NCBI GenBank assembly: GCA_018058135.1
Contig: JAGPCK010000007.1
Coordinates: 1,815-65,814 of the forward strand
DNA length: 64,000 nucleotides
Reading direction: 5' to 3'
Source of the DNA: Bacteroidia bacterium
Lineage (GTDB): Bacteria; Bacteroidota; Bacteroidia; UKL13-3
Both the position numbers and the translations under genes were made by a program. The stretch's first letter is position 1. The number at the start of each line of letters is the position of its first letter. A model generated the notes under the pieces. The model saw only the letters and a program-made list of their open reading frames with translations, ran no database searches and was not told where the DNA came from. Below are positions 24,085-53,360 of the stretch, one piece after another.

Positions 24085-24160
<76 letters not shown>

Positions 24161-24166
24161 CAATAA

Positions 24167-24209
24167 ATAAAGGCTTTAAGATACTTTTTCTTAAAGCCTT
24201 TATTATTTT
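24167..24209 (+). terminator. Rho-independent terminator just inside the island (serves the reconstituted tRNA-Pro)
   Basis: Perfect 14-bp stem ATAAAGGCTTTAAG / CTTAAAGCCTTTAT with a 9-nt loop, followed by a T-rich tail. Confidence 0.75.
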
Positions 24210-24449: not shown

Positions 24450-24842
24450 ATGCAAGGAACCCAACTTAGAAAATTAGAAGCAGAAATGTGGAGAGCCGCT
24501 GACCAACTCAGGGCCAACAGTAAACTGACCGCTTCGGAATACTCCATGCCTGTATTGGGTCTGATATTTTTGCGACACGCCTACAACCGCTTTCAAAAAG
24601 TAAAAATTGAAGTAGAAAAAACCTTGCCTTCACATCCTCAAAGGAGAGCATTGACTAAAAAGGACTTTGAAGAACAAAATTCAATTTTCCTTCCCGAAAA
24701 ATCACAATTTGACTATTTAGTGGCATTGCCTGATTACCCGACTTATCAAACAGATGATATTGACTTAAAAACGAACCTTGTATTTGAACATTTTAAACAA
24801 CAATATTTTGGAGGAGGAATGAGTATTTACGGGCAGTATTAG
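24450..24842 (+). pseudogene. Truncated Type I R-M methylase (HsdM N-terminal ~95 aa) fused to unrelated repeat-derived sequence
   Basis: The N-terminus LEAEMWRAADQLRANSKLTASEYSMPVLGLIFLRHAYNRF is the HsdM_N signature. The reading frame then runs into the 109-bp repeat at 24737 and stops. No methylase catalytic motifs are present. Confidence 0.65.
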
Positions 24843-25049: not shown

Positions 25050-27416
25050 ATGAACCAAGCAGTACACAATAAATCAATATCCTTTATTTGGTCAATTGCA
25101 GACGATTGTTTGCGTGATGTTTATGTGAGAGGGAAATACCGTGATGTAATCTTACCAATGGTGGTGCTTCGTAGGCTTGATGCCCTGCTAGAGCCTACCA
25201 AGGAAGCGGTGTTAGAAGAGTTGGTTTTTCAGAAGGAGGAAGCCAAATTTACGGAATGGGACGAAAACGGATTACGACAAGCCAGTGGTTATGTGTTTTA
25301 CAATACCAGCCAATGGACATTGCAACGATTACACGATACTGCAACAAACAACCAACAAATACTTCAAGCAAATTTTGAAGATTACCTCAATGGATTTAGC
25401 GGAAACGTAAAGGAAATCATTGAGAAGTTTAAACTCAAAAGTCAGGTACGACACATGGCATCGAAAGATGTCTTGTTGAATGTATTAGAAAAATTCACTT
25501 CGCCTTATATCAACCTTACGCCATTTGAGAAAAATGATCCGGATGGTCGTAAACTGCCGCCATTAACCAATCTTGGAATGGGTTATGTGTTTGAGGAACT
25601 GATACGCAAATTCAACGAGGACAATAACGAAGAAGCTGGGGAACACTTTACGCCTCGTGAAGTTATTGACTTAATGACGCATATTATTTTTGAACCAGTA
25701 AAAGACAAACTTCCTCCTGTAATGACTATTTATGACCCGGCTTGTGGAAGCGGAGGAATGTTGACCGAATCTCAGAATTTTGTAAAGGATGAAGAAGGCG
25801 AAATTAAAGCCAAAGGCGATGTGTATTTGTATGGCAAGGAGATTAATGACGAAACTTATGCCATTTGCAAGTCGGATATGATGATTAAGGGCAACAATCC
25901 TGAAAATATCCGTGTGGGTTCAACACTGAGTACCGATGAGTTTGCAGGAACCACATTTGACTTTATGCTTTCAAATCCGCCTTATGGAAAATCATGGGCA
26001 AGTGAGCAAAAGTTTATAAAAGATGGTAAAGATATTATTGACCCTCGTTTTCAAATTAAACTGAAAAATTATTGGGGAGTTGAAGAAGATGCAGATGCAA
26101 CGCCTCGTTCATCTGATGGTCAATTGCTGTTCCTGATGGAGATGGTGAATAAAATGAAGCCATTAACTCAAAGTCCTTTGGGTTCTCGTATTGCTTCGGT
26201 GCACAATGGTAGTAGTTTGTTTACGGGTGATGCCGGAGGTGGCGAAAGCAATATCCGCAGATACATTATTGAGAATGACTGGCTGGAAGCCATTGTACAA
26301 ATGCCCAATAATTTATTCTACAATACAGGTATTACGACTTATATCTGGATAGTAAGCAACAACAAAGCACCTACACGTAAAGGCAAAGTGCAATTGATTG
26401 ATGCCGGTTTATTGTTCCGTAAACTCCGTAAAAATTTAGGAAACAAAAACTGTGAGTTTGCACCCGAACATATTCGTGAAATAGTTTCGGTATATGAAAA
26501 GATGCAGCCTGTTGACCGCAGTATTCATCCTGAAAGCAAAGAAGAACAAGGCATAGCAGCTCAATTGTTTGACAATACCGATTTTGGTTATTACAAAGTA
26601 ACCATAGAAAGGCCAAAGAGACTAAAAGCAAAGTTCACAGCTGAACGTATTGCTGAATTGAGGTTTGATCGTTCGATAGCTGAGCCTATGAAATGGGCAT
26701 ATGAGCAATATGGCGAAAAGGTATACACAGACCTTGGCAAGTACAGCAACGAAATTCTGAAGTGGGCAGAAAGTCAAGAATTGAATTTGAATGCCAAGCA
26801 CCAAAAGGAATTATGCAGTGTTGAACACTGGAAGAAATACAAACTTATGTTGGAATGTGCAAATGCACTAATGGAAGAAGTAGGACAAGATGAATACAAT
26901 GATTTTAATGTGTTTGCAAAATTGGTAGATGCTGCAATAAAAAAATTAAAACTGACACTTTCGTCAGGTCAAAAAAATGCCATTTTAAATGCAGTGAGCT
27001 GGTATGATGAAACTGCCGAAAAAGTAATAAAGGGTACTACTAAATTGACAGGTGATAAACTGGAAAAATTGCTGGATCATTTGGATTGTAAAGAAACCGA
27101 GCTGTCAGATTACGGCTATTTTACTACTGACAAGAAGGGCGAATACCTGGAGTATGAAACCGAAAGCGATTTGCGTGACACTGAAAATGTACCACTAAAA
27201 GAAAATATCTACACTTACTTTTTGCGTGAAGTAAAACCACACGTTGCCGAAGCTTGGATAAATTTAGATTCTACAAAAATTGGTTACGAAATAAGTTTTA
27301 ACAAATATTTCTATCGCCATAAGCCTTTGCGAGCCATTGAAGAAGTAAGCACCGATATTTTGAAACTGGAAGAATTGAGTGATGGTTTAATTCGTGAAAT
27401 TTTAAATCTAGCTTAA
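25050..27416 (+). CDS. hsdM: Type I restriction-modification system, DNA methyltransferase subunit M
   Basis: 788 aa. Motifs: FTPREV, motif I DPACGSGGML, motif IV LSNPPYGKSW. The stop shares one nucleotide with the hsdS ATG (TAATG). Confidence 0.9.
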   Translation: MNQAVHNKSISFIWSIADDCLRDVYVRGKYRDVILPMVVLRRLDALLEPTKEAVLEELVFQKEEAKFTEWDENGLRQASGYVFYNTSQWTLQRLHDTATNNQQILQANFEDYLNGFSGNVKEIIEKFKLKSQVRHMASKDVLLNVLEKFTSPYINLTPFEKNDPDGRKLPPLTNLGMGYVFEELIRKFNEDNNEEAGEHFTPREVIDLMTHIIFEPVKDKLPPVMTIYDPACGSGGMLTESQNFVKDEEGEIKAKGDVYLYGKEINDETYAICKSDMMIKGNNPENIRVGSTLSTDEFAGTTFDFMLSNPPYGKSWASEQKFIKDGKDIIDPRFQIKLKNYWGVEEDADATPRSSDGQLLFLMEMVNKMKPLTQSPLGSRIASVHNGSSLFTGDAGGGESNIRRYIIENDWLEAIVQMPNNLFYNTGITTYIWIVSNNKAPTRKGKVQLIDAGLLFRKLRKNLGNKNCEFAPEHIREIVSVYEKMQPVDRSIHPESKEEQGIAAQLFDNTDFGYYKVTIERPKRLKAKFTAERIAELRFDRSIAEPMKWAYEQYGEKVYTDLGKYSNEILKWAESQELNLNAKHQKELCSVEHWKKYKLMLECANALMEEVGQDEYNDFNVFAKLVDAAIKKLKLTLSSGQKNAILNAVSWYDETAEKVIKGTTKLTGDKLEKLLDHLDCKETELSDYGYFTTDKKGEYLEYETESDLRDTENVPLKENIYTYFLREVKPHVAEAWINLDSTKIGYEISFNKYFYRHKPLRAIEEVSTDILKLEELSDGLIREILNLA

Positions 27417-28744
27417 TGGAAAAAGTGGTGGATAATATTAAATTGATTAAATACTCTTCATATAAGGACTCCGGAGTTGAATGGTTGGGAGAAATACCAA
27501 GTAATTGGGATTTAACTCGTTTAGGAACAAGATTTGAAGAAAGAAAAACTAAGGTTTCTGATAAAGATTTCCCACCATTATCAGTTACAAAAAATGGAAC
27601 TATCCCTCAATTGGATAGTGCTGCAAAAAGCAACGATGGTGATAATAGAAAGCTAGTAAAGACTGGAGACTTTGTAATTAATAGTCGTTCAGACAGAAAA
27701 GGTTCAAGTGGTATTGCTTATCAGGATGGCTCAGTTTCGCTTATCTATATTGTGATGGAGCCTAAAGGTATACATCCAATTTATTGCAACTATCTTTTAA
27801 AATCATACAATTTCATTGAGGAATTTTATAGAATGGGACATGGAATTGTTGCGGACTTATGGACAACGCGATATGAGGAGATGAAAGCTATTATGGTTGG
27901 GATACCTTCAATTGAAGAACAAACCGCAATTGCTGCCTTTCTCGACCGCAAAACAGCCTTGATAGACCAAGCCATTGACATCAAACAAAAGCAAATAGAA
28001 CTTCTCAAAGAACGCAGGCAAATACTCATACACAAAGCTGTTACCCGTGGGCTAAACCCCAATGTAAAGATGAAAGATAGCGGAGTGGTATGGATTGGCG
28101 AGATACCGGAGGGTTGGCATCTAAAAACTTTAAAATTTTTAAAGGCAAACATTAAAAATGCTTTTGTTGATGGGCCATTTGGCTCCAATTTAAAATCAGA
28201 ACATTTTATTGAGGATGGCAATGTCTATGTAGTGGAAAGCGGCTTCATTACAACTGGCGTTTTTATAAACAAAGTTTTTAAAACTATTTCTGAAAAGCAC
28301 TATCAAACAATTAAACGAAGTACTTGTAGTGAAGGCGATGTAATTATTGCAAAAATTGGTGCGAATTATGGAATGGCTGCTGAACTACCTTTATTGGATA
28401 AAAAAGCTGTTGTGTCGGGGAATTCATTAAAAATCACTTTAGATAACTCAAAGATTTTAAATATTCTATTTGTGAAGTTATTAGGGTTGTCAAAAACGCT
28501 TGGTGGATTTGAGGAAATTGTAAATGCGAGTGCACAACCTGCGCTTTCTTTAGGCGGATTAAATAATTTGAAATTACCTATTGCTCCAATTGACGAACAA
28601 CCATTAATTGCCAAGCAGATTGACAATATTGAGAGTAAAACCGCCACAACCATTTCCCTCAAAGAGCAAGAAATAGAAAAGCTAAAAGAATACAAAGCCA
28701 GCTTGATAAATAGTGCGGTAACGGGTAAAATAAAAGTTTACTGA
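27416..28744 (+). CDS. hsdS: Type I restriction-modification system, specificity subunit S
   Basis: 442 aa with two target-recognition halves. Each half is followed by a conserved coiled region (IEEQTAIAAFLDRKTALID...LLKERRQILIHKAVTRGL and IDEQPLIAKQID...KLKEYKASLINSAVTGKI). Confidence 0.88.
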   Translation: MEKVVDNIKLIKYSSYKDSGVEWLGEIPSNWDLTRLGTRFEERKTKVSDKDFPPLSVTKNGTIPQLDSAAKSNDGDNRKLVKTGDFVINSRSDRKGSSGIAYQDGSVSLIYIVMEPKGIHPIYCNYLLKSYNFIEEFYRMGHGIVADLWTTRYEEMKAIMVGIPSIEEQTAIAAFLDRKTALIDQAIDIKQKQIELLKERRQILIHKAVTRGLNPNVKMKDSGVVWIGEIPEGWHLKTLKFLKANIKNAFVDGPFGSNLKSEHFIEDGNVYVVESGFITTGVFINKVFKTISEKHYQTIKRSTCSEGDVIIAKIGANYGMAAELPLLDKKAVVSGNSLKITLDNSKILNILFVKLLGLSKTLGGFEEIVNASAQPALSLGGLNNLKLPIAPIDEQPLIAKQIDNIESKTATTISLKEQEIEKLKEYKASLINSAVTGKIKVY

Positions 28745-28759
28745 TGAGAATTATTGCCT

Positions 28760-30622
28760 ATGAATAATGAAGAAATACCAAAAAATATACCATTTGAGCC
28801 AATAAGATATTTGTTGGGTAAATCATTCGTGGTTAAGGATTACCAGCGCGGCTATAAATGGGAGAAAAAGGAGGTTTTAGACCTCTTGAATGATATAGGG
28901 GAGCATGACGAAGCAGATGGACGTTATTGTTTGCAGCCAATTATAGTTAGAGAGCCTCAAGGTGATTCTGATATTTTAATTGAGCTTATTGACGGTCAGC
29001 AACGGTTGACTACAATATATTTAATACTTGCATATTTAAACGGAGGTATTCCAAACTCTTACTTTATTGATTATAACACACGATTAGAAAGCGCTGAGTT
29101 TCTGAAAAATCATATTCCGGATCTCCATGAGGCCGTTGTAAATCAAAAAAATTGGGGCGACTTCATATCTCAGATTGGTTATGAAAGATTCAACAATGTT
29201 GATGTGCTTCATTTTTATTTGGTGTATAATGAAGTTCATAACTGGTTTAAATCAAGGAACCAAGAACTATTTTCTACTAAATTGCTAAATGTAGTTCATA
29301 TAATTTGGTACGATTTAGGAAGAACAATTGCCGGTTACAATCAATCTTCTGAAGAGTTATTTCTTAACCTGAATGCAGGAAAGATACCATTAACAAGTGC
29401 TGAGTTGATAAAGGGACTGTTTATTCTAAATGTTCAGGATGCAACGAATAAAGAACTTGCGAAATTGAAAGCGAAAGAGTTGGCAATGGAGTGGGATCAA
29501 ATTGAGAACAAGTTACATGATGACACCTTCTGGCTTTTTATTTGTAACAAACCTCAATATACCAAGTCGGATACGCGAATAGATTATATTTTTGATCTAA
29601 TTAATGGGAAGTCAGAGCGAAATGATTATGAATTGTTTTCCTTTAGAATATACTCGGAAAAATACAGGCAGGAGAAGGTTAAAGCCGACAACGAAAGACT
29701 GATTGATGCACTTAATTGGAAAGAAGTAAAGAATACCTTCAACAAACTGAACGAATGGTATGAAGATAAGTTTTTATACCATTACGTTGGTTACTTGGTC
29801 GTTAGCTGTATAGCAGATCTGAGTGATATATTGAAGTTAAGCAAAGGATTAACAAAAAAGGCCTTCATGATATGCCTATTGGACCTTATTAAAGAAGAAT
29901 TTCGAAAAACATATATTGATGAAGGTGGAGAAACTCAATTAAGATACCATGTGAACAATCTTAATTATGAGGATTTCAGGAAAGAGTGTCAGAACGCCTT
30001 ATTGTTAATGAATGTACAGTATTATACTTTTAATGGCAGCTCAAATAAATTTCCGTTCGATCTTTATAAAAAGGAAAATTGGAGTGTGGAGCATATCAAT
30101 CCACAAAATCCAAGGAGTTTTGACACTGCCTACGAAATCAGAAAATGGTTGGAAAGTAGCAGGGACTATTATCAAGGAATCGGCAACCCGTTAGCTGAAA
30201 GTATAGAAACGGTATTGCAGGATTTTGAACGAATAGAATACTCTGATGACCGCAAATTATCCGCCTTAAAATTATCTAAAGAGAGAAATGAAACGATTGA
30301 TCGATTGATTGAAGACCTAACAGATGATTTAGATCTACATGGTATTTCGAACCTTGCTTTGCTAGATCGGATTACTAATAGCAGGCTTGGGAATAAGCCT
30401 TTTTTAGATAAGCGAGCAATGATACTTGAGATAGATTCAGGAGAGGAGTCTTTTGCATTTATCCCTGTTCTTACAAAAAATGTATTTGTTAAAATTTATA
30501 CAAAGGATTCACAAAGCTTAACTAATTCATTTTTTGGACATCAAGATATGGAGGATTATTGTTCCTTTATTGGTAGTCAGCTTCGCAAAATTAACCCTGA
30601 ATTGGAGACAAAGAATGCATAA
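28760..30622 (+). CDS. DUF262 (ParB/Srx-like NTPase) + DUF1524 (His-Me/HNH-like) protein, GmrSD/BrxU-type Type IV restriction architecture
   Basis: N-terminal motifs DYQRGYKWEKKEV and IDGQQRLTTIYLIL. C-terminal motifs WSVEHINPQN and NLALLDRITNSRLGNKPF. The first ATG is at 28760, and the track start is a TTG two codons upstream. Confidence 0.75.
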   Translation: MNNEEIPKNIPFEPIRYLLGKSFVVKDYQRGYKWEKKEVLDLLNDIGEHDEADGRYCLQPIIVREPQGDSDILIELIDGQQRLTTIYLILAYLNGGIPNSYFIDYNTRLESAEFLKNHIPDLHEAVVNQKNWGDFISQIGYERFNNVDVLHFYLVYNEVHNWFKSRNQELFSTKLLNVVHIIWYDLGRTIAGYNQSSEELFLNLNAGKIPLTSAELIKGLFILNVQDATNKELAKLKAKELAMEWDQIENKLHDDTFWLFICNKPQYTKSDTRIDYIFDLINGKSERNDYELFSFRIYSEKYRQEKVKADNERLIDALNWKEVKNTFNKLNEWYEDKFLYHYVGYLVVSCIADLSDILKLSKGLTKKAFMICLLDLIKEEFRKTYIDEGGETQLRYHVNNLNYEDFRKECQNALLLMNVQYYTFNGSSNKFPFDLYKKENWSVEHINPQNPRSFDTAYEIRKWLESSRDYYQGIGNPLAESIETVLQDFERIEYSDDRKLSALKLSKERNETIDRLIEDLTDDLDLHGISNLALLDRITNSRLGNKPFLDKRAMILEIDSGEESFAFIPVLTKNVFVKIYTKDSQSLTNSFFGHQDMEDYCSFIGSQLRKINPELETKNA

Positions 30623-32903
30623 CACTAATTTTAATACCTTTTGGAAGATCTTAAACGCGTCTCAAATTGAGATTCCAACTATTCAACGAGATTATGCTCA
30701 TGGCAGAGATAGTGCTTCAACTATCAGGAGAAATCTTGTTGAGAAAATGATTACCAACCTAAGAACTGGCGGGAAATTAAACTTGGATTTTATTTACGGT
30801 AAATTAGTCGGCAAAGAAAACCAGATTGCTTATGCACGAAACAAAGAAAATATTTCGTCTTTATTACGTTCAATAAAAAATTATGCAAACGAATTGCAGG
30901 TACGAATAGAGACAACCATTGATAACTCAGCTCAGAATACCGAAGCAAATCTTGTTTTTATTCCTTTAGATGGGCAACAGCGTTTGACTACCTTGTATCT
31001 CTTGCATTGGTATATTATTCAACAAAGGAGTGATACAGATGCTTTGTATAAGTTGTCAAACTTTAGCTATTCAACACGTATTAGCTCAAAAGAGTTCTGT
31101 AAGTTAATTTGCTCAAAGTTATTTGATTTTAGGAATGAAGGGATATCACCATCGGAACTAATAAGTAATGATGAGGGATTTTATTCTTTCTGGAAGAAAG
31201 ATCCTACCGTGCATAGCATGTTGGTTGTTTTAGACGAGTTTCACAATGAATGCTCCAAACTAACTATTGACTATAACAGCATATGGAAAAATCTAACAAC
31301 TCTGGAGAGTATTACATTCGACTTCTTTGACCTCGATGATTTTTCTCTAACGGATGAGCTTTATATAAAGATGAATGCCAGGGGTAAAAAGCTGACAGAT
31401 TATGAGAATTTTAAAGCCTGGATAATACAGCAGTTTGACAAGAAAATTGATATTCCTGATTGGCAAAAACATCTTGACATTAAGTGGCACGATCTATTCT
31501 GGAAATCAAAGGCCTTGGAGGAATTAACAGTAGACAAGAATTACCTACAGTTTTTCAAGATCAACTATCTGTGCGAACGCCTTAATGAGCTTTATCAACA
31601 AAATCCTAAAAACAGCACTTTCAATAATACTCAAATAGAAAACCAACTAAGAGATGCTGAAGTAAATCCAATAGATATATTCCGCAATGATCCAAGCTTA
31701 TTTGACAAAATTGAAACAACATTAAACATCCTGAATAAGGTTGATTTAGATATTCTGAAGACAGCTGATGAGTCACTTTTAAAATTTACTCAGGTTTCTT
31801 TAGACAAGTTTTTGTTCGGAAGTAAAATACGTGATTACAGTTGGTGGGATATCACATTATATTATGCTATTACCCAATATCTAATAAAATCACCTAAGGA
31901 TCCACAGTATTTTAAACAATGGGCAAGATTTATTTCTAATCTAATATATAATACTCCTATTGAGACTGCAAGCCTTTTTGCTGAAGCTGCAAAAAGTATT
32001 GATCGTTTATTGGATAGGTTTAATAATAGGAATAGCGTTTATTTCGATTTGGTAAGTTTAAACGAAAAAGATGTTTTCTTTTTTTCTGGAATGCAGGTTA
32101 AAGAAGAAATACATAAAGCCGATCTTATCATAAACAAGAATATTGAGTGGGAAGATGTAATTCATCAAGCAGAAAGTCATCACTACTTCTGGGGACAGAT
32201 TGGATTCATTTTTAACTTAGAAGTCTTAAACAGTACAAACCTGGATGTGTTTAAGATCTTATTCCAAAAATTGGAGTGCATCTTTAGTGAGGAGATTATG
32301 AAAAGGGAGGATTTCTTGCTTCTTCGGGCATTGTTGAAGCAAGGAGATGTGTTTTATCGAGGAGGTTACAATATGTCCTTCCCGAGCAATTCTTCTCATG
32401 GTGCACTTCGTTTGAAAAATGATAATTGGAGAAGAATATTCAATGATGTACATCATCGATCACACCTAAAGTCCTTATTAAATTGTTTCCCGGCTCCTAC
32501 AACAGATGCAATCGCAATATTGAAGGAGCAGGTCTCTTTGGCAACTATGGTTACTGATAAAAACATGCGATTGCTCATTCAGGTGCCACGCCTACTGGAG
32601 TATTGCAAGAAACACTGTCTAAAGCAAGATAATAAAAATATTTACCTACTTAATTCCACACGAATTCTGGGCTATTATGCTGAGGTAGAAACTTATAATT
32701 GGTATCTGGCAAAGAATAGCAATGAGTATATGTACTCTTATGCCAAAGGAAATGCTGAAAGACCTGGAATAAAGTTCAAGAACGATGAAATTGATTTATT
32801 GATTAGTAAAGATGAGAAAACGGGGGAATTTAAGATTAACAACAACACTAACAGTTATCCAACTATAGATTTAGCACTTAATTCAATAAAATATGACCAG
32901 TAA
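30615..32903 (+). CDS. DUF262 domain protein with a long uncharacterised C-terminal region (no HNH/DUF1524 motif seen)
   Basis: Motifs IPTIQRDYAHGR and PLDGQQRLTTLYLLHWY. The ATG at 30615 overlaps the upstream stop (ATGCATAA). The track start 30534 is a TTG extension. The stop overlaps the hsdR ATG by 11 nt. Confidence 0.7.
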   Translation: MHNTNFNTFWKILNASQIEIPTIQRDYAHGRDSASTIRRNLVEKMITNLRTGGKLNLDFIYGKLVGKENQIAYARNKENISSLLRSIKNYANELQVRIETTIDNSAQNTEANLVFIPLDGQQRLTTLYLLHWYIIQQRSDTDALYKLSNFSYSTRISSKEFCKLICSKLFDFRNEGISPSELISNDEGFYSFWKKDPTVHSMLVVLDEFHNECSKLTIDYNSIWKNLTTLESITFDFFDLDDFSLTDELYIKMNARGKKLTDYENFKAWIIQQFDKKIDIPDWQKHLDIKWHDLFWKSKALEELTVDKNYLQFFKINYLCERLNELYQQNPKNSTFNNTQIENQLRDAEVNPIDIFRNDPSLFDKIETTLNILNKVDLDILKTADESLLKFTQVSLDKFLFGSKIRDYSWWDITLYYAITQYLIKSPKDPQYFKQWARFISNLIYNTPIETASLFAEAAKSIDRLLDRFNNRNSVYFDLVSLNEKDVFFFSGMQVKEEIHKADLIINKNIEWEDVIHQAESHHYFWGQIGFIFNLEVLNSTNLDVFKILFQKLECIFSEEIMKREDFLLLRALLKQGDVFYRGGYNMSFPSNSSHGALRLKNDNWRRIFNDVHHRSHLKSLLNCFPAPTTDAIAILKEQVSLATMVTDKNMRLLIQVPRLLEYCKKHCLKQDNKNIYLLNSTRILGYYAEVETYNWYLAKNSNEYMYSYAKGNAERPGIKFKNDEIDLLISKDEKTGEFKINNNTNSYPTIDLALNSIKYDQ

Positions 32904-35900
32904 AACCAACGAACAAGCTTTAGAGGCTGCTATAGAAAAATGCCTCACTGGTCTTTGTAAAGAGGAATTGGAATTACAAAACCAAGAATTTTCCATAGCC
33001 GCAGATAGAAAAGACCTATATCGTGCTGGCAATGGTTATTATATTGGAGTTCCCGGAGATTTTAATGCGAAGTATGCTATAGATGAACACCGTTTTTGGG
33101 ATTTTTTACAAACTACTCAAAAAGATGAACTAGCCAAATTGCAAAAACAAAGCGATTGGAAATTAAAGATTCTGGAACGATTGGATCGGATGATTAAAAA
33201 ATACGGCATTCTGCGTTCTTTTCGAAAAGGCTTAGATGTAGATGATGCTCATTTCACTTTGTTGTATCCGTTGCCATTAGCCAGCAGTAGCGAAACGGTG
33301 AAGGCAAATTTTGAAAGCAATCAATTTAGCTCTACCCGTCAGCTTCGCTATTCCCTAACCAATACAGGTGAAGAAATTGATATGGTGCTTTTTGTGAATG
33401 GTTTACCATTTGCCACTATGGAATTAAAAAATCATTGGACAGGACAGAACGCAAAAGTGCATGGTCAAAACCAATACAAATTCAAAAGAGATATTACACA
33501 GCCATTATTAAACTTTGGGCGATGCATTATACATTTTGCAGTTGATACGGATGAAGTGTATATGACAACTAAATTGAATGGGAAGGATACTTACTTTTTG
33601 CCATTTAACTTAGGTCAGCGTGAACCTTTGTTTGGCAAAGGCAATCCACCAAATCCGTTTGGTCATAAAACTGCTTATTTATGGGAAGAAATATTTTCCC
33701 GAAACAGTGTTGCCAATATCATTCAGCATTTTGTTCGCTTTGACGGTAAAGATACTGATCCACTTAGCAAAAAGACTTTGTATTTTCCACGTTACCATCA
33801 ATTAGATGTTGTGCGAAAACTCATAAACGATGCCAGTAAAAAAGGCGTTGGGCAAAAGTATTTAATTCAACATTCTGCTGGTTCAGGTAAATCTAATTCT
33901 ATTACTTGGGCGGCCTATCAACTAATAGAAACATATCCAGAAAGCGATTCAATACCCGGAAGCAAAGGCATTTCAAATCCTTTGTTTGATTCCGTGATTG
34001 TAGTAACAGATAGAAGATTGCTGGATAAGCAACTACGGGAAAACATTAAAGAATTTTCAGAAGTTAAAAATATTGTGGCGCCTGCATATACTTCTGATGA
34101 CTTAAAAAAGGCTCTGGAAACTGGTAAGAAAATAATTATTACCACTATTCAAAAATTTCCATTTATAGTAGATGGTATTGCCGATTTAAGCGATAAACGA
34201 TTTGCAGTAATTATTGACGAAGCCCACAGCAGTCAAAGCGGAACAGCCGCAGGAAAAATGAACCAAGCAATGGGCAATACTTCAGAAGAAAATGAAGAAG
34301 AAGATGAACAAGACCCACAAGATAAAATATTAGAAGCCATGCGTTCACGCAAAATGCGAGGTAATGCTTCATACCTTGCATTTACAGCTACGCCTAAGAA
34401 CAACACACTCGAACGTTTTGGCGTAAAACAAGCAGATGGAAAACACAAACCATTCCATTTATATTCTATGAAGCAAGCCATAGAAGAAGGATTTATTTTG
34501 GATGTATTGGCAAACTACACAACTTACAAAAGCTATTACGAAATTGAAAAATCGATACAAGAAAATCCTTTATTTGACACTGTAAAAGCACAAAAGAAAT
34601 TAAGAACCTATGTTGAGCAAAACAAGCAAACCATTGCTACTAAAGCTGACATAATGTTAGAGCACTTTGTAACTAAATTAGTTAACACCAAAAAGCTTAA
34701 AGGAAAGGCCAAAGCTATTGTTGCAACCCAAAGTATTGAATCCGCTATCAATTATTATTACTCCTTGAAAACATTACTTGAAGAAAGAGGCAAGCCATTT
34801 AGAATTGCTATTGCTTTTTCAGGCACAAAAAAAATAAAGGGTATCGAATACACAGAGGATAGCATCAATGATTTTCCTGCAAATTTAGATACAGCAAAAC
34901 CAACAGACCCTGGCTATATCAGCGATAAGATTGCACGTTATGTTGACATGGACGAATACCGAATTTTAGTAGTGGCAAATAAATATCTGACAGGTTATGA
35001 CCAACCAAAACTAACCGCCATGTATGTTGACAAAAAATTGCAAGGAGTAATTGCGGTTCAGGCTCTATCAAGATTAAATCGTTCATCGGACAAACTCGGA
35101 AAGAAAACAGAAGATTTATTCATACTTGATTTTTACAATACCACTGAAGACATTAAAAAATCTTTCGACCCATTTTATACAGCAACATCATTAAGCAAAG
35201 CAACTGACATCAACGTACTGCATGAATTAAAATCTAATTTGGATGATGCTGGTGTTTATGAATGGAGCGAAGTAGAAGATTTTGTGGTAAAATACTTTAG
35301 AGGTGTGAATGCTCAAGAATTAAGCCCGATAATAGACACAGCAGCCGAAAGATTCAATTTATCTTTAGCGTTAGAAGATAAAGCAAAAGCAGATTATAAA
35401 ATTAAAGCGAAACACTTCGTAAAAATATACGGACAGATGGCTTCGATTATGCCTTATGAAGTTGCAGCATGGGAAAAATTATTTTGGTTTTTGAAATTTT
35501 TAATACCCAAACTGATAATTGTCGACAATGACAAAGATGCTTTAGATGGTCTATTAAATTCAGTTGACCTTTCTACTTATGGGTTAGAACGTGTAAAATT
35601 GAATACCAGCATTGGCCTTGATGAATCAGAAACAGAAGTTGACCCACAAAATCAAAATCCAAGAGGTGCACACGGTGTTGACTCGGAAAAAGACGAACTT
35701 GATTTAATAATCAAAAGTTTCAACGAACGCTGGTTCCAAGGATGGGAAGCTACACCTGATGAACAAAGAGCCAAGTTTGTGAACCTCGCACAGAAAATGA
35801 AAGAGCATAGCGACTTCAAAGAAAAGTATGCTGACAATTCTGATTTGCAAAACAGGGAAATTGCTTTTAGTAAAATATTTGATGATGTAATGGGTAAGCA

Positions 35901-35997
35901 ACGCAAGAATGAACTTGATTTATATAGATTGGTTTCTCAAGACGAAGGATTCAAGATAGCTATGCAGGATACTATTAAAAGGTTATTGAAACATTAG
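32893..35997 (+). CDS. hsdR: Type I restriction endonuclease subunit R
   Basis: 1034 aa. N-terminal PD-(D/E)xK-like region IDMVLFVNGLPFATMELKN, Walker A HSAGSGKSNS, DEAH box VIIDEAHSSQSG, and helicase C motifs (LTGYDQPKL). Confidence 0.9.
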   Translation: MTSKTNEQALEAAIEKCLTGLCKEELELQNQEFSIAADRKDLYRAGNGYYIGVPGDFNAKYAIDEHRFWDFLQTTQKDELAKLQKQSDWKLKILERLDRMIKKYGILRSFRKGLDVDDAHFTLLYPLPLASSSETVKANFESNQFSSTRQLRYSLTNTGEEIDMVLFVNGLPFATMELKNHWTGQNAKVHGQNQYKFKRDITQPLLNFGRCIIHFAVDTDEVYMTTKLNGKDTYFLPFNLGQREPLFGKGNPPNPFGHKTAYLWEEIFSRNSVANIIQHFVRFDGKDTDPLSKKTLYFPRYHQLDVVRKLINDASKKGVGQKYLIQHSAGSGKSNSITWAAYQLIETYPESDSIPGSKGISNPLFDSVIVVTDRRLLDKQLRENIKEFSEVKNIVAPAYTSDDLKKALETGKKIIITTIQKFPFIVDGIADLSDKRFAVIIDEAHSSQSGTAAGKMNQAMGNTSEENEEEDEQDPQDKILEAMRSRKMRGNASYLAFTATPKNNTLERFGVKQADGKHKPFHLYSMKQAIEEGFILDVLANYTTYKSYYEIEKSIQENPLFDTVKAQKKLRTYVEQNKQTIATKADIMLEHFVTKLVNTKKLKGKAKAIVATQSIESAINYYYSLKTLLEERGKPFRIAIAFSGTKKIKGIEYTEDSINDFPANLDTAKPTDPGYISDKIARYVDMDEYRILVVANKYLTGYDQPKLTAMYVDKKLQGVIAVQALSRLNRSSDKLGKKTEDLFILDFYNTTEDIKKSFDPFYTATSLSKATDINVLHELKSNLDDAGVYEWSEVEDFVVKYFRGVNAQELSPIIDTAAERFNLSLALEDKAKADYKIKAKHFVKIYGQMASIMPYEVAAWEKLFWFLKFLIPKLIIVDNDKDALDGLLNSVDLSTYGLERVKLNTSIGLDESETEVDPQNQNPRGAHGVDSEKDELDLIIKSFNERWFQGWEATPDEQRAKFVNLAQKMKEHSDFKEKYADNSDLQNREIAFSKIFDDVMGKQRKNELDLYRLVSQDEGFKIAMQDTIKRLLKH

Positions 35998-37441: not shown

Positions 37442-37486
37442 GTTTACGATTTATTCCGTAACTTGCTTAATACTAATCTGCTTATA

Positions 37487-39472
37487 ATGACTAGATTCTT
37501 TTCTGCCATCTTGTTCTTATTAATAACTCTTCTTGGAAGTGCACAGGACTACAAACGCACAAACATTTGGTATTTTGGTAAAGATAATGGCCTTAGCTTT
37601 ACGAATAACCCGCCTACATACCTTAATGATGGAATAATAGACTCTTACGAAAGTCAAGCAAGCATATCCGATACAAATGGCAATCTGTTATTTTATATGG
37701 ATAACACAAAGGTAAGAAACAAAATACACGCTATCATGGAAAATGGAAGTGGTATTTTTGTAGATCAGTCCTGTACACAAGGTAGTATAATTGTACCCCA
37801 ACCTGAGAACGATTCAATATACTACATCTTTACCACTGTTAGAGCAGGTGGATTCTATTATTCAGTCGTTAACACAAATGCGAATAATTTTAGTGGAAAG
37901 GTAATCTCCAAAAACAATCTTTTATTAACTCCAGTATCAGAAAAATTAACTGCGGTTAAACACAATAATGGAATAGACTATTGGATAACAGTACATGGTG
38001 CAAACAGCAATCATTTCTATACCTTTCTTTTGAGTCGTAATGGAGTAGTAAGTTGTCCTATTATTTCAGCAATAGGGACAAGTTACACTAGTAGTAACTT
38101 AGCAGGTGCAATGAAATTTTCTCATAATGGTAAACATTTAGCAGTATCAACTTTCATTGGAGACAAAGTTGAATTTTTTAGTTTCAATGCTAGAAATGGA
38201 ATAATATCAAACAAGAAAAACATAGACAGTTTGTATGTACCATATGGGATAGAGTTTTCCCCAAATGATAAATTTTTATATGTTTTTGAAGCAGATAGAA
38301 GACTATTTCAATATTCTATTGAAGAGAGTAATGTAATAACTCAAAGCAGGCACTTAGTCTATGATTTTTCGACATACATTCTAAATGATATTCAGGGCTT
38401 ACAGATTGCTTTAGATGGCAAAATATACATTGCAATGCCTAATAATGATTCACTATCTATTATTCATTACCCAGACTCACCGTTAGTAAAATGTGGATTT
38501 GAGTTTAATGGATTAAGTCTGAATAATAACCAATCCCAATATGGCCTGCCTAATTTTGTTTCTTCATACTTCGGTCAACAAAAGCCCGACTTTCAATACC
38601 GCATAAACTGCGTTGGGAACATTGGCACTTTTACCCCTCATAATGTCCCCGGAGTGCAAAAATGGAATATTAAAAAAATAGGTGCTACAGTTGGTAGCAC
38701 TTACACCAATGCCACTGCACAGCATACCTTTAATGATTCGGGAGAATATTCTGTAACACTTTACACAACAAACAACGATACCATAATTAAAACCGTCTAC
38801 ATTGACGCACCTATTCTTCCACTAGCTGACACTTTAGGTTGTGGCGTTGATAGTGTTGTGTTAAACGTTCCTTCATCGTATCGCTGTTTGCAATGGAGTG
38901 ATACCTCTGCACAATTCTATTCTCGTACAATCATAAAAAACGGTCATTATACAATACAAGGATATAATTCACAAGGATGTCTTATAACCGATAGCATAAG
39001 AATCAATTTTACACCTTCACCTTTACAGCCTACCATCACTAAAGTTAATGACAGCTTGAAAAGTACACCATCGTTTGCATACCGGTGGTTCTTAAATGAT
39101 ACCGCAATTACAGGAGCAAGTTCTCAAAGCATTAAACCTCTTGTTGCGGGTATGTATAAAGTACTCATTACCGACAGCAACGGGTGCTCTAATGTAAGTA
39201 CTGCGTATTCATCCAATGTTGGAGAACAGGAACTAAACAAAACATCAATAAAGATTTACCCCAACCCTGCTTTTGAAAACATAATTATTGAGTCTGATGC
39301 TGAAATAGAATCAATAATAATACATGATGCAATAGGTCGCTCTAACTATGAGCAATTTCAAACACAAAAGGCTACCATAAAAATTCCCTGTAACTCATTT
39401 GCAAAAGGCATCTATTTTATACAAGTAAAAACCAACAACAATACCTACTGTCGAAAAATAATTGCTCAATGA
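37487..39472 (+). CDS. T9SS-secreted surface protein, paralog 1
   Basis: Signal peptide MTRFFSAILFLLITLLGSAQ. The N-terminal motif is DYKRTNIWYFG..GLSF. The C-terminal Por tail is KIYPNPAFENIII...GIYFIQVKT. The first ATG is at 37487. Confidence 0.75.
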   Translation: MTRFFSAILFLLITLLGSAQDYKRTNIWYFGKDNGLSFTNNPPTYLNDGIIDSYESQASISDTNGNLLFYMDNTKVRNKIHAIMENGSGIFVDQSCTQGSIIVPQPENDSIYYIFTTVRAGGFYYSVVNTNANNFSGKVISKNNLLLTPVSEKLTAVKHNNGIDYWITVHGANSNHFYTFLLSRNGVVSCPIISAIGTSYTSSNLAGAMKFSHNGKHLAVSTFIGDKVEFFSFNARNGIISNKKNIDSLYVPYGIEFSPNDKFLYVFEADRRLFQYSIEESNVITQSRHLVYDFSTYILNDIQGLQIALDGKIYIAMPNNDSLSIIHYPDSPLVKCGFEFNGLSLNNNQSQYGLPNFVSSYFGQQKPDFQYRINCVGNIGTFTPHNVPGVQKWNIKKIGATVGSTYTNATAQHTFNDSGEYSVTLYTTNNDTIIKTVYIDAPILPLADTLGCGVDSVVLNVPSSYRCLQWSDTSAQFYSRTIIKNGHYTIQGYNSQGCLITDSIRINFTPSPLQPTITKVNDSLKSTPSFAYRWFLNDTAITGASSQSIKPLVAGMYKVLITDSNGCSNVSTAYSSNVGEQELNKTSIKIYPNPAFENIIIESDAEIESIIIHDAIGRSNYEQFQTQKATIKIPCNSFAKGIYFIQVKTNNNTYCRKIIAQ

Positions 39473-39699
39473 ATACCCTGAAAAAACTCTTCCAAAGTGA
39501 GTTGATGAATTTCAAGTATCTTATAAAGATATTCCAGCGAGATGTTGCGCCCTTTTTCTATACTCCAATAGTATTTACGGTCAAGATCATATTGAACAGC
39601 AAAGTTTTCATAGGAGGTGAACCCCGCACCAATTCTCAACTGCTTGATTTTTGCAGCAATAGCAGCATTCCGAAGAGAAGCTTCTGGAGTAGTTTTCAT
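39466..39699 (-). CDS. XRE-family helix-turn-helix transcriptional regulator
   Basis: 77 aa from the first ATG (MKTTPEASLRNAAIAAKIKQLRIGAGFTSYENFA...). The track start 39723 is a TTG. The 3' end overlaps the convergent T9SS gene by 7 nt. Confidence 0.65.
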   Translation of the reverse strand: MKTTPEASLRNAAIAAKIKQLRIGAGFTSYENFAVQYDLDRKYYWSIEKGRNISLEYLYKILEIHQLTLEEFFQGIH

Positions 39700-39782
39700 G
39701 GGCGAAAATTGACGTACTCGCAAAAAATAAATTACGGCATATATGCCTCATTTATTAGAAATTCATATATTTGTATACTGCC

Positions 39783-41813: not shown

Positions 41814-41832
41814 CCCTTTAAACATTTTTACT

Positions 41833-50355: not shown

Positions 50356-50600
50356 AGTGCGCACTACGTTTTTTACTGCGCAACTACGTTTTTACTGCGC
50401 ATCTACTTTTTTTGCAGTGCATCTACGTTTTTGCTACGCATCTATGTTTTTTTCTGCGCACTATGTTTTTTGATGCACATCTACTTTTTTGCTGCGCATC
50501 TATGTTTTTTACTGCGCAACTACGTTTTTACTGCGCAGTACGTTTTTTTCTGCGCACTATTTTTTTTACTGCGCATCTACGTTTTTTACTGCGCATCTAA
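50356..50600. repeat. Iteron-like tandem array: 12 full units plus 1 partial unit of ~19-20 bp (consensus ACTGCGCATCTACGTTTTTT)
   Basis: I parsed the units by hand from 50356 to 50604, with a mean period of about 19.3 bp. Each unit ends in a T5-T8 tract (phased A/T tracts). The last unit encodes the C-terminal residues (..DAQ*) of the primase-like gene. Confidence 0.85.
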
Positions 50601-51674
50601 ATAGTCCCTAAGATCAAAGTTTCCTTTATTCTTATGTGATTGAGGTGCTTTTTCCTCCAAAAGAGCTGATACAGATACGATTAAACCGTTTTTGCGCATT
50701 TCAACTGCTTTAGCGCTCCATTTATCAAATTGCCCTAAATCAGGGAATAGGATAACATTCCTGCTGCGCAGCACATGATTTACATCTTGCTTTTGCATAT
50801 TGCATCCATTTGAACCACCTGTGGCCAGCCAGATTATTTGAGGCATTCGACCTGCGCAATAAATGGCCGTTGCTTCGGATTCAACTATTGCTACCGTATT
50901 TTCTTTGTCACTGCGCACCCAAGTGCGCAACTCAGTGTGTGCAGTGCTGCGCTTTCCAGTGCATTCTTCAGTTTGTGTAACGCTGCGTTCCCAAGAGCGC
51001 ACCTCAGTTTGCGCTGCGCTGTGCTCCCAACTGCGCTCCTCACTGTGTGCTGTGCTCCTCACCCCAGTGCACTCCTCAGTTTGTGCTGCGCTGCACTCCC
51101 AAGTTCGCTCCTCACAGTGAGCTGTGCTGCGCAGTAAATGTTCACCGAAAAAACACTGTTTCAATACAAACTCTTTGGGTGCGTACCCCTTTTCGTTAAG
51201 CACGTGCGCCCAGTTAATATGGGAATAAGGTTCTTTAACTCGCCTACCTGTTTTTTGGTCGTACAGCATCACTTTTCCGGTACGCACTCTTCCGTTAATA
51301 TCCATTTGCCAAAAGACTGTTGCACCATTCCAATGTTTTGACGTACCTATATGATATTTTTCAATTAACCTATCAACGGTTTCTTTATTGAAATGTAGCA
51401 TGAGATAATCTATAAAAGCGTTTTTGTGATATGAACTCAGGCTTTTTTTAAATACATCACTTTCTATATAGCTCGGAGGTTTAGGCTTAAACTGTTTGAT
51501 CGGTATAGGGGTTTGCAAATCTGGGGCAGGTCGAAATATCTGACCACAACTATGACACATACCGTAATGGATAGCTCCAATGAAAGGGGAGAACTTGCCA
51601 TCCTTGTTTGATTTACCGCAGGGACAAAACTCAACCCGTTTCCTGTTTCTATCGAATTTGTATTTATTTCCCAT
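50586..51674 (-). CDS. Zinc-finger + TOPRIM primase-like replication protein with an internal 12-aa repeat insertion
   Basis: 362 aa. The N-terminus has CPCG...CHSCG (Cys4 zinc finger). The C-terminus has VAIVESEATAIYC...NVILFPDLG (TOPRIM-like E and DxD-like). A 72-aa repeat block lies between them. Confidence 0.6.
   Translation of the reverse strand: MGNKYKFDRNRKRVEFCPCGKSNKDGKFSPFIGAIHYGMCHSCGQIFRPAPDLQTPIPIKQFKPKPPSYIESDVFKKSLSSYHKNAFIDYLMLHFNKETVDRLIEKYHIGTSKHWNGATVFWQMDINGRVRTGKVMLYDQKTGRRVKEPYSHINWAHVLNEKGYAPKEFVLKQCFFGEHLLRSTAHCEERTWECSAAQTEECTGVRSTAHSEERSWEHSAAQTEVRSWERSVTQTEECTGKRSTAHTELRTWVRSDKENTVAIVESEATAIYCAGRMPQIIWLATGGSNGCNMQKQDVNHVLRSRNVILFPDLGQFDKWSAKAVEMRKNGLIVSVSALLEEKAPQSHKNKGNFDLRDYLDAQ
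50909..51124. repeat. Intragenic 6 x 36-bp imperfect tandem repeat (approximate consensus TGCTGCGCTCCCAAGTGCGCTCCTCAGTTTGTGCTG)
   Basis: I parsed six in-frame 36-bp units by hand. They encode TAHCEERTWECS / AAQTEECTGVRS / TAHSEERSWEHS / AAQTEVRSWERS / VTQTEECTGKRS / TAHTELRTWVRS on the minus strand. They share the CTGCGC(A) core with the downstream iterons. Confidence 0.8.
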
Positions 51675-51707
51675 TATTGCCTACTTTCCTTACTTACTTA
51701 CTTACTA

Positions 51708-52973: not shown

Positions 52974-52984
52974 AATAATACTGT

Positions 52985-53293: not shown

Positions 53294-53360
53294 GATTTCG
53301 AAAATATGAGCAATTTTAAAGGCAAATATCGCAGAGGAACGGAAAAAGGAATTTCCTTTT

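What the first reader, a model, noticed from the sequence alone, without database searches (positions are those of the whole stretch)
25050..35997. Two DUF262 genes translationally wedged between hsdS and hsdR of a Type I R-M operon: candidate composite defence system
- Gene order: hsdM, hsdS, DUF262+DUF1524, DUF262-only, hsdR.
- Junctions: TAATG overlap at 27416; a 15-nt gap before 28760; the 8-nt overlap ATGCATAA at 30615-30622; an 11-nt overlap at 32893-32903. All five genes therefore look co-translated.
- Protein A (28760-30622) has the GmrSD/BrxU/SspE-type architecture, with DGQQRLTT plus WSVEHINPQN...NSRLGNK.
- Protein B (30615-32903, 762 aa) has the DUF262 motifs (QRDYAHGR, DGQQRLTT). 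I could find no His-Me/HNH motif in its ~550-aa C-terminal region, so its effector or sensor function is unknown.
- Placing the pair inside the R-M operon, rather than beside it, suggests functional coupling. One option is that Type I attacks unmodified DNA while a Type IV-like A/B complex attacks modified DNA. Another is that the pair modulates HsdR.
Basis: partly seen in the sequence, partly recalled or inferred. Interest (0 to 1): 0.78.

Follow-up and report, generated by a model that had tools for sequence, protein, structure and literature searches.

The report
GrwAB-type restriction pair inside Type I operon
Two DUF262 genes wedged inside a Type I restriction-modification operon are real, but they belong to the already described GrwAB family of two-protein enzymes that cut phage DNA carrying unusual bases, and they occupy a slot in this operon type that holds other known defence systems in related bacteria.

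Summary

The pair is not a new system. A (DUF262+DUF1524) and B (DUF262 plus a long C-terminal region of unknown function) are homologues of GrwA and GrwB of Vibrio cholerae. GrwAB is a published two-gene GmrSD-like Type IV restriction system against phages with hypermodified DNA. Gene order, motifs and similarity well beyond the DUF262 core all agree: 32-33% identity, E 3e-51 and 2e-38.

The surrounding Type I system is a close relative of the V. cholerae VPI-2 system: HsdM is 78% and HsdR 66% identical over the first ~400 residues. That system carries the analogous, published TgvAB pair in the same slot.

In 76 of 76 related loci with upstream DNA, an A homologue sits directly upstream of the B homologue. 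Only about 1 in 8 of these pairs lie between hsdS and hsdR.

Near-identical copies of this Type I chassis carry TgvAB, Kiwa, Tiamat (TmtA), another GrwAB-like pair, or nothing. The embedding is therefore best read as cargo in a swappable slot, not as dependence on HsdR.

B's C-terminal region matches no Pfam family or solved structure. Verdict: a new member of a known kind, of modest interest.

The parts
25050..27416 (+). hsdM, Type I methyltransferase subunit (788 aa), VPI-2-type chassis
   Evidence: Pfam HsdM_N and N6_Mtase. PADLOC MTase_I E 1.6e-265. Over the first ~400 aa it is 94% identical to Cytophaga hutchinsonii HsdM and 78% to V. cholerae VC1769.
27416..28744 (+). hsdS, specificity subunit (442 aa); its start overlaps the hsdM stop (TAATG)
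   Evidence: Pfam Methylase_S. PADLOC Specificity_I E 1e-115. The conserved C-terminal '...INSAVTGKIKV' is shared by all chassis copies examined.
28760..30622 (+). A: grwA-like gene (620 aa), DUF262 NTPase plus DUF1524 His-Me nuclease
   Evidence: Pfam GmrSD_N and GmrSD_C. Key residues are R82 (DGQQR), H445, N531 and N540. It is 32% identical to V. cholerae GrwA over 442 columns (A 6-414 against GrwA 3-399), E 3e-51. It matches TgvB only in short motif stretches.
30615..32903 (+). B: grwB-like gene (762 aa), DUF262 plus an all-alpha middle region and an alpha/beta C-terminal region of unknown function
   Evidence: Pfam GmrSD_N only. It is 33% identical to V. cholerae GrwB over 344 columns, E 2e-38. 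The B-family HMM scores GrwB (first 400 aa) at E 1.3e-82 and TgvA (first 400 aa) at 1.6e-5. AF2 models have pLDDT 85 (full length) and 88 (C-terminal part), with no significant Foldseek match in the PDB.
32893..35997 (+). hsdR, Type I restriction/translocase subunit (1034 aa); its start overlaps the end of B by 11 nt
   Evidence: Pfam HSDR_N, ResIII/SWI2_SNF2 and T1R_D3-like. It is 84% identical to C. hutchinsonii HsdR and 66% to V. cholerae VC1765 over the first ~400 aa. Homologues at 85-97% identity occur in many Bacteroidota and a Spirochaete MAG.

Best explanation
The locus is a Type I restriction-modification operon of the same chassis type as the one in Vibrio cholerae VPI-2. Between hsdS and hsdR it carries a passenger cassette encoding a GrwAB-family two-protein Type IV (modification-dependent) restriction enzyme.

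Shown:
- The gene order and the overlapping junctions.
- The domain content and intact catalytic motifs. Both proteins have the QR, DGQQR and FxxxN motifs; A has H445, N531 and N540.
- Homology of A to GrwA and of B to GrwB well beyond the DUF262 core.
- Obligate A-then-B pairing across many phyla.
- The same chassis elsewhere carrying TgvAB, Kiwa, Tiamat, another GrwAB-like pair, or an empty slot.

Inferred from the published prototypes:
- A and B act as a complex.
- Both DUF262 NTPase sites are needed.
- A's His-Me nuclease cuts invading DNA that carries hypermodified bases. The prototype acts on sugar-modified hydroxymethylcytosine and on 7-deazaguanine. The specificity here is unknown at 32-33% identity.
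- B contributes sensing or regulation through its unique C-terminal region.
- The pair works independently of HsdR. It is co-transcribed with the Type I genes, so one operon covers both unmodified DNA (Type I) and modified DNA (A/B).
- The cassette most likely arrived and is exchanged by recombination between the conserved 3' end of hsdS and hsdR.
For: - Junctions and ORFs.
- Domains.
- Motifs.
- Homology to GrwA and GrwB (first 400 aa, from the supplement of bioRxiv 10.1101/2024.11.23.624991): A vs GrwA 32% over 442 columns, E 3e-51; B vs GrwB 33% over 344 columns, E 2e-38; the B-family HMM vs GrwB E 1.3e-82.
- Other proteins that the authors list as GrwB hits also match B: Phocaeicola vulgatus at E 1e-41 and Helicobacter hepaticus at E 3e-38.
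- Published properties of GrwAB (PMC12137116): grwA (DUF262+DUF1524) comes first and grwB (DUF262 plus unknown domains) second. Both are required. The mutants R81A, H431A, N521A, N530A and GrwB R86A all abolish defence. Targets are Tevenvirinae and Queuovirinae. Escapers map to dpdA.
- A-B linkage: 76 of 76 loci, gap at most 20 nt in 74.
- Chassis orthology with VPI-2 and Cytophaga.
- Variable cargo in chassis with 86-97% identical HsdR.
- Locus L083 is 97% and 94% nucleotide-identical to the window on either side of the slot, including the downstream flank, but carries Tiamat instead of A-B.
- Cargo starts 0-15 nt after the hsdS stop. In the copies examined it ends between 11 nt past the hsdR ATG (overlap) and 7 nt before it. 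No shared linker sequence is visible.
Against: - Only the first 400 residues of V. cholerae GrwA and GrwB were available, because the supplement is truncated. Homology of the C-terminal halves to the prototype itself was therefore not tested directly. For A it rests on motif spacing: H to N is 86 residues in A and 90 in GrwA. For B it rests on the continuity of the B family.
- At 32-33% identity, substrate specificity cannot be transferred.
- No experiment exists on this locus or on any Bacteroidota member.
- Co-transcription is inferred from the overlaps. The sigma-70 promoter and terminator scan was no better than shuffled sequence and does not model Bacteroidota promoters.
- TgvAB gave 10- to 100-fold stronger protection in its native five-gene context than alone (PMC11411939). 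Some benefit from the embedding, whether through expression or otherwise, is therefore not excluded.
Confidence: 0.8

Rival explanations
1. A and B are physically or functionally coupled to the Type I enzyme. They could act as a guard that fires when HsdR or the methyltransferase is inhibited (PrrC-like), or as modulators of HsdR translocation or cleavage.
For: - The junctions with hsdS and hsdR are tight, including an 11-nt overlap with hsdR.
- GrwAB-like pairs lie between hsdS and hsdR in at least three different Type I families (L002, L004, L011, L034, L040, L053).
- PrrC is a precedent for an embedded gene that depends on its Type I host (PMC12707154).
- TgvAB was 10- to 100-fold stronger in its native five-gene context (PMC11411939).
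Against: - Most A-B pairs have no adjacent Type I genes; hsdR follows B in 6 of 48 loci with enough flank.
- The prototype GrwAB works in E. coli as a two-gene construct and is not embedded (PMC12137116).
- TgvAB defence was unchanged by HsdR K172A (PMC11411939).
- The same slot holds the unrelated systems Kiwa and Tiamat, or is empty. This points to a cargo site rather than a dedicated partnership.
Confidence: 0.1
2. The pair is an SspE-like or DndB-like sensor of host backbone or base modification. It would attack DNA that lacks a host mark, rather than DNA that carries a phage mark.
For: - A has weak N-terminal matches to SspE models in PADLOC (E 1e-9 to 1e-10) and to the SspE chain 6jiv (E 0.28).
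- SspE shares the DUF262+DUF1524 architecture.
Against: - The SspE matches cover only the ~80-residue DUF262 core.
- No ssp or dnd genes were identified among the window genes scanned against Pfam, nor among the 25 commonest families in the upstream neighbours of 76 related pairs.
- The closest characterised relative, GrwAB, is modification-dependent (PMC12137116).
Confidence: 0.05
3. The cassette is a decaying or inactive passenger, and only the Type I system is functional.
For: - Related loci do show split or frameshifted A genes (L005, L017, L020, L054).
- A truncated fragment of an unrelated hsdM lies just upstream (24450-24842), so the area has seen decay.
Against: - Both ORFs are full length.
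- All catalytic motifs are intact.
- The family-invariant residues of B are all present.
- The AF2 models are confident.
Confidence: 0.05

Closest known systems
[quoted passage not shown]
   Same: - Gene order is the same: the DUF262+DUF1524 gene comes first and the DUF262 gene with a long unknown C-terminal region second, with overlapping junctions.
- The QR, DGQQR and FxxxN motifs are present in both proteins.
- The His-Me triad has the same unusually long H-to-N spacing: 86 residues here and 90 in GrwA.
- Sequence homology extends well beyond DUF262. A vs GrwA gives E 3e-51 and B vs GrwB gives E 2e-38; the family HMM vs GrwB gives E 1e-82.
   Different: - Identity is only 32-33%.
- B has a ~40-residue helical insert inside DUF262 (residues 66-113), which shifts DGQQR to R123 against R86 in GrwB.
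- Here the pair is embedded between hsdS and hsdR. The prototype sits next to a Shedu gene in VSP-II.
- The host is a Bacteroidia MAG.
- Specificity is untested.
[quoted passage not shown]
   Same: - It occupies the same slot (between hsdS and hsdR) of the same Type I chassis. HsdM is 78% and HsdR 66% identical to VC1769 and VC1765.
- It has the same two-protein logic: one DUF262+DUF1524 protein and one nuclease-less DUF262 protein.
- The junctions overlap; tgvA and tgvB also overlap by 8 bp.
   Different: - Gene order is reversed.
- The nuclease-less partner is unrelated outside DUF262. TgvA is ~500 aa with DUF7834; B is 762 aa with no Pfam match in its C-terminal region.
- hhalign between the two families aligns only 35 columns.
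- A matches TgvB only in short motif stretches.
Single-protein GmrSD-family enzymes (Eco94GmrSD, BrxU, SspE, HEC-06)
   Same: - A has the full DUF262, helical linker and DUF1524 architecture with its motifs.
- BrxU is likewise embedded in another defence system (BREX) and covers modified DNA.
   Different: - Those enzymes act alone, as homodimers. A is always paired with B (76 of 76 loci).
- PADLOC models for HEC-06, Orf5 and SspE match mostly the first ~90 residues of A; a few also reach further or hit the C-terminal nuclease motif. They do not match B at all.
Genes embedded in Type I R-M loci in general (PrrC, RloF, 'guilt-by-embedding' of Payne et al., bioRxiv 10.1101/2024.01.29.577857; Machnicka et al. 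2015, PMC4619093)
   Same: - The cargo is co-oriented between hsdS and hsdR.
- GmrSD-like genes are already reported as enriched in, and embedded in, Type I loci.
   Different: - PrrC depends on its Type I host. Nothing here suggests dependence.

Membership tests
GrwAB two-gene Type IV restriction system | Two adjacent co-oriented genes: the first encodes DUF262, a helical linker and a DUF1524 His-Me nuclease; the second encodes DUF262 plus a long C-terminal region of unknown domains | tested here: met
   Pfam architecture. 8-nt overlap between the genes. AF2 layout of B. The definition is taken from PMC12137116.
GrwAB two-gene Type IV restriction system | Sequence homology to V. cholerae GrwA and GrwB that extends beyond the shared DUF262 core | tested here: met
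   A residues 6-414 align with GrwA 3-399 (E 3e-51). B residues 8-316 align with GrwB 8-301 (E 2e-38). The B-family HMM matches GrwB up to profile column 381 (E 1.3e-82). Only the first 400 aa of the prototypes were available.
GrwAB two-gene Type IV restriction system | [quoted passage not shown] | tested here: met
   A has Q29/R30, R82, F201..N205, H445, N531 and N540. B has Q24/R25, R123 and Y250..N254.
GrwAB two-gene Type IV restriction system | Both genes are required, and defence is directed at phages with hypermodified DNA | not testable with these tools
   This needs cloning and phage challenge. The only indirect support is strict co-occurrence (76 of 76 loci).
[quoted passage not shown] | Embedded between hsdS and hsdR of a Type I operon | tested here: met
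   The chassis is orthologous to VC1765-69.
[quoted passage not shown] | TgvA-type partner (~500 aa, DUF262 plus DUF7834) encoded first, and a TgvB-type nuclease encoded second | tested here: not met
   The order is reversed. B gives no DUF7834 hit at E<=10, whereas Cytophaga TgvA does carry DUF7834. hhalign between the B family and the TgvA family aligns 35 columns only. blastp matches are limited to the DUF262 core.
Type I restriction-modification system | HsdM (N6-adenine methyltransferase), HsdS (two target-recognition domains) and HsdR (nuclease plus SF2 motor) encoded together | tested here: met
   Pfam, PADLOC and NCBIfam hits. The scores for TIGR00497 and TIGR00348 are below their curated cut-offs, so this is a divergent subfamily. 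It is the same one as the experimentally active VPI-2 system (PMC11411939).
PrrC-like guard of a Type I enzyme | The embedded gene is found almost only inside Type I loci and depends on the host enzyme | tested here: not met
   hsdR follows B in only 6 of 48 loci with adequate flanks. Dependence itself is not testable here.

The most novel reading that the evidence does not exclude
The VPI-2-type Type I R-M system is a widely transferred carrier with a precise, reusable cargo slot between hsdS and hsdR. Whole defence cassettes (GrwAB, TgvAB, Kiwa, Tiamat) are exchanged there by recombination in the conserved 3' end of hsdS and the 5' end of hsdR. On this reading embedding is not neutral: translational coupling to hsdS and hsdR would set the cassette's dosage, and GrwAB-type pairs would gain activity or breadth from the context, as hinted by the 10- to 100-fold stronger TgvAB protection in its native operon.
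Probability: 0.25. Interest if true: 0.5.

Novelty: new member of a known kind. Interest (0 to 1): 0.3.

Why it matters
- It places a Bacteroidia locus in two experimentally grounded frameworks, GrwAB and the VPI-2-type Type I chassis. It can therefore be annotated with some confidence instead of as 'DUF262 domain-containing protein'.
- It shows that GrwAB-type pairs, described as a standalone module, also occupy the slot known for TgvAB.
- One highly conserved Type I chassis carries at least four different known defence cassettes in that slot.
- This makes a tidy natural example of defence-cassette exchange. It also gives a convenient set of natural variants for testing whether embedding affects activity.
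- It does not reveal a new mechanism. The open biochemical question is what the nuclease-less DUF262 partner and its unmatched C-terminal region do. That question is already posed by the published systems.

Tried and rejected
Function of B's C-terminal region:
- Pfam at E<=10 on residues 281-762 and 471-762 found nothing.
- NCBIfam and PADLOC found nothing meaningful for B.
- phmmer and a profile search against PDB sequences found nothing.
- AF2 models were confident (pLDDT 85 and 88). Foldseek against the PDB gave no match at E<=0.001. The best full-length hit was BrxU at E 0.77, and the best C-terminal hit was at E 3.5.
- A degenerate His-Me finger was considered around the 'ESHHYFWGQIGF' motif. 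I rejected it because the model puts this motif in a loop between helices, and no His is invariant in the family.

Membership in TgvAB:
- This was my first hypothesis after finding PMC11411939.
- I rejected it on blastp, Pfam DUF7834 and hhalign.

Promoter and terminator scan:
- The counts were no better than in shuffled sequence, and the sigma-70 consensus does not fit Bacteroidota.
- It is uninformative about co-transcription.

Access to GrwAB sequences:
- Supplementary Table 6 of the Nat Microbiol paper was truncated in the held copy.
- The bioRxiv version supplied the first 400 residues.

Detection of His-motif positions in all 76 A homologues:
- My regular expressions failed for most sequences, so I did not use them.
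Full report
**1. Observation**

The window carries five co-oriented ORFs at the coordinates given.
- The junctions are exactly as described. hsdM and hsdS share TAATG at 27416. A 15-nt gap precedes the ATG of A at 28760. A and B overlap by 8 nt (ATGCATAA, 30615-30622). B and hsdR overlap by 11 nt (32893-32903).
- Pfam assigns the domains as follows. HsdM has HsdM_N and N6_Mtase. HsdS has Methylase_S. A (620 aa) has GmrSD_N and GmrSD_C. B (762 aa) has GmrSD_N only. HsdR has HSDR_N, ResIII/SWI2_SNF2 and T1R_D3.
- PADLOC and NCBIfam agree for the Type I subunits. They give nothing meaningful for B: no PADLOC hit, and one NCBIfam hit at E 0.076.
A has R82 in DGQQR, H445 in VEHINP, and N531 and N540. 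B has Q24/R25 and R123.

**2. What the pair is**

- There, hsdM-hsdS-tgvA-tgvB-hsdR forms one operon.
- TgvA has DUF262 only, and TgvB has DUF262+DUF1524.
- Both are needed to restrict T-even phages with glucosylated hmC.
- Defence is unaffected by an HsdR K172A mutant.

The paper's Table S3 gave the first ~400 residues of VC1765-69 and of a Cytophaga hutchinsonii cluster. blastp against these showed two things.
- The window's Type I subunits are close orthologues. HsdM is 94% identical to the Cytophaga protein and 78% to the Vibrio protein. HsdR is 84% and 66% identical.
- A and B match TgvA and TgvB only over the ~80-120-residue DUF262 core.

Further tests separated B from TgvA.
- Cytophaga TgvA is 499 aa and carries Pfam DUF7834. 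B has no such hit even at E<=10.
- A profile-profile comparison of 43 B homologues with 24 TgvA homologues aligned only 35 columns.
- The gene order is also reversed.

The pair is therefore not TgvAB.

A second search found GrwAB, from the VSP-II island of the WASA lineage of V. cholerae (PMC12137116).
- grwA (DUF262, helical linker, DUF1524) comes first.
- Both are required. The mutants GrwA R81A, H431A, N521A and N530A and GrwB R86A abolish defence.
- The targets are Tevenvirinae and Queuovirinae, and escapers map to dpdA.
- The authors state that GrwB and TgvA are unrelated outside DUF262.

The bioRxiv supplement supplied the first 400 residues of GrwA (603 aa) and GrwB (821 aa). It also supplied hits that the authors call GrwAB in Phocaeicola vulgatus and Helicobacter hepaticus. 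The comparisons gave:
- A aligns with GrwA over A 6-414 and GrwA 3-399: 32% identity, E 3e-51.
- B aligns with GrwB over 344 columns: 33% identity, E 2e-38.
- An HMM of the B family scores GrwB at E 1.3e-82, with the match running to profile column 381. The same HMM scores TgvA at 1.6e-5.
- The distance from the catalytic His to the first Asn is unusually long in both proteins: 86 residues in A and 90 in GrwA. It is about 31 in TgvB.

A and B are members of the GrwAB family.

**3. Conservation of the pair and of its context**

A profile scan of one genome per species returned 80 loci. They come from Bacteroidota, Clostridia, Campylobacterota, Actinomycetota, Proteobacteria, Verrucomicrobiota, Spirochaetota and other phyla.
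- In all 76 loci with upstream DNA, a full-length A homologue lies immediately upstream of the B homologue on the same strand. The remaining four loci have B at the contig edge.
- The gap is at most 20 nt in 74 of the 76, and the genes overlap in 53, most often by 4 nt.

This is as tight a two-gene linkage as one sees. By contrast, linkage to Type I genes is a minority pattern.
- hsdR follows B directly in L002, L004, L011, L034, L040 and L053. That is 6 of 48 loci with at least 3 kb of flank.
- These six involve at least three Type I families, one of which has an EcoEI-type HsdR.
- A few more loci have hsd genes merely nearby.
- Among 124 upstream neighbours, the commonest Pfam families were WYL/WCX regulators (8 and 6), Methylase_S (7) and RNase_T exonucleases (7). 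This is a typical defence-island mixture.

**4. The chassis and its slot**

The window's HsdR has homologues at 85-97% identity in many Bacteroidota and in a Spirochaete MAG. I looked up the contexts of seven of them and ran PADLOC on the cargo. Between hsdS and hsdR they hold:
- TgvAB in C. hutchinsonii, which also has a YhcG-like PDC-S02 gene between hsdM and hsdS.
- KwaA and KwaB (Kiwa) in L084 and L086.
- TmtA (Tiamat) in L083 and in L088-90.
- A second GrwAB-like pair in a Chitinophagaceae MAG, L087. There A is 49% and B 40% identical to the window's, while HsdR is 93% identical.
- Nothing in L085, where hsdS itself overlaps hsdR by 11 nt.

Locus L083 is the most telling.
- It is 97% nucleotide-identical to the window across hsdM and the first half of hsdS.
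- It is 94% identical across hsdR and 1.5 kb of downstream flank, so it is the same chromosomal locus in a close relative.
- It shares nothing between 28744 and about 33016.

The cassette has therefore been replaced between near-identical loci. Cargo begins 0-15 nt after the conserved HsdS tail '...INSAVTGKIKV'. It ends between 11 nt past the hsdR ATG (overlap) and 7 nt before it, and there is no shared linker sequence. The simplest reading is homologous recombination in the conserved flanks, which would also swap the second target-recognition domain of hsdS.

**5. B's C-terminal region**

AF2 with 43 homologues gives a confident model (pLDDT 85). It has three parts.
- DUF262 spans residues 1-275, with a helical insert at 66-113.
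- An all-alpha region spans 283-565.
- An alpha/beta region spans 568-762.

A separate model of residues 470-762 has pLDDT 88 and pTM 0.87. Neither model has a significant Foldseek match in the PDB. Sequence searches of Pfam and the PDB are also empty. The family-invariant residues in this region are E498, K501, E520, Y524, F525, Q528, F531, F557, W605 and R606. They imply a conserved functional site. There is no invariant His and no beta-beta-alpha finger. Its role as sensor, regulator or interface is inference only.

**6. Mechanism and rivals**

The best explanation is a Type I operon carrying a GrwAB-type modification-dependent restriction cassette as co-transcribed cargo. The two systems act independently and complement each other.

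Functional coupling to HsdR is the main rival. I rate it low for four reasons.
- The pair is mostly standalone.
- The GrwAB prototype is not embedded in a Type I operon.
- TgvAB is independent of HsdR catalysis.
- The slot is promiscuous.

One caveat is that TgvAB protected 10- to 100-fold better in its native context. Its authors attributed that to expression stoichiometry.

An SspE-like logic and an inactive cassette are both unlikely.

**7. Novelty**

The following are all published:
- the pair's family;
- the embedding of a two-protein DUF262 system in this chassis;
- the general enrichment of GmrSD-like genes in Type I loci (PMC4619093);
- the idea that embedded genes are defence cargo (bioRxiv 10.1101/2024.01.29.577857).

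What is modestly new here is threefold.
- A GrwAB-type pair occupies the TgvAB slot.
- GrwAB-type pairs have entered Type I operons of several families.
- One conserved chassis carries at least four known systems, and a recent swap can be seen directly.

This is a new member of a known kind. I score interest at about 0.3.

Noticed in passing
window 24450-24842 (+): A 130-aa ORF matches only the HsdM N-terminal domain (Pfam HsdM_N, E 4.6e-12). It is unrelated in sequence to the operon's own HsdM. It looks like a remnant of a different Type I system, lying just upstream of the intact operon.
   Followed up: partly
window 24085-24159 (+): A tRNA-Pro (GGG) gene, followed by a strong hairpin at 24166-24204, lies ~900 nt upstream of hsdM. 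GC content drops from about 0.41-0.43 over most of the upstream window to 0.34-0.37 across 26-42 kb. The defence operon may sit in a tRNA-linked island. I did not search for a direct repeat of the tRNA end.
   Followed up: no
window 50586-55594 (-): A separate mobile-element module. It has a tyrosine integrase with an Arm-DNA-binding domain (54356-55594), a VapE-like protein (51708-52973) and a DUF6371 protein (50586-51674).
   Followed up: no
window 37463-47619 (+): Three large proteins carry type IX secretion C-terminal sorting domains (Por_Secre_tail); one of 1928 aa also has Peptidase_M43 and PKD domains. This fits the Bacteroidota origin. Protein B is 100% identical to a protein of a 'Bacteroidia bacterium' MAG.
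   Followed up: partly
L084 8494-9993 and L086 8470-9993: A complete Kiwa system (KwaA+KwaB) is embedded between hsdS and hsdR of a Type I chassis whose HsdR is 93-94% identical to the window's.
   Followed up: partly
L083 3401-6484; L088 5830-9996: Tiamat (TmtA; PADLOC E 7e-151 and 1e-258) is embedded in the same slot. L083 is the same chromosomal locus as the window (94-97% nucleotide identity on both sides) but with different cargo. In L083 a 182-aa ORF with no family match precedes TmtA.
   Followed up: partly
L082 4132-5277 (C. hutchinsonii CP000383); L088 3028-4445: A second, less used slot lies between hsdM and hsdS. It holds a YhcG/DUF1016 nuclease-like gene (PADLOC PDC-S02) in Cytophaga. 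In the Spirochaete copy it holds a 103-aa ORF with no family match plus a 367-aa protein with HTH_3 and a weak Peptidase_M78 hit.
   Followed up: no
upstream neighbours of A-B pairs in L001-L080: RNase_T / Rv2179c-like DEDD exonuclease genes (7 of 124 neighbours) and WYL-WCX regulators (8 and 6) recur just upstream of GrwAB-like pairs. The exonuclease association is unexplained.
   Followed up: no
L085 4457-6289: In the chassis copy with an empty hsdS-hsdR slot, a single 610-aa GmrSD-type gene (GmrSD_N plus a weak GmrSD_C) sits immediately upstream of hsdM instead.
   Followed up: no
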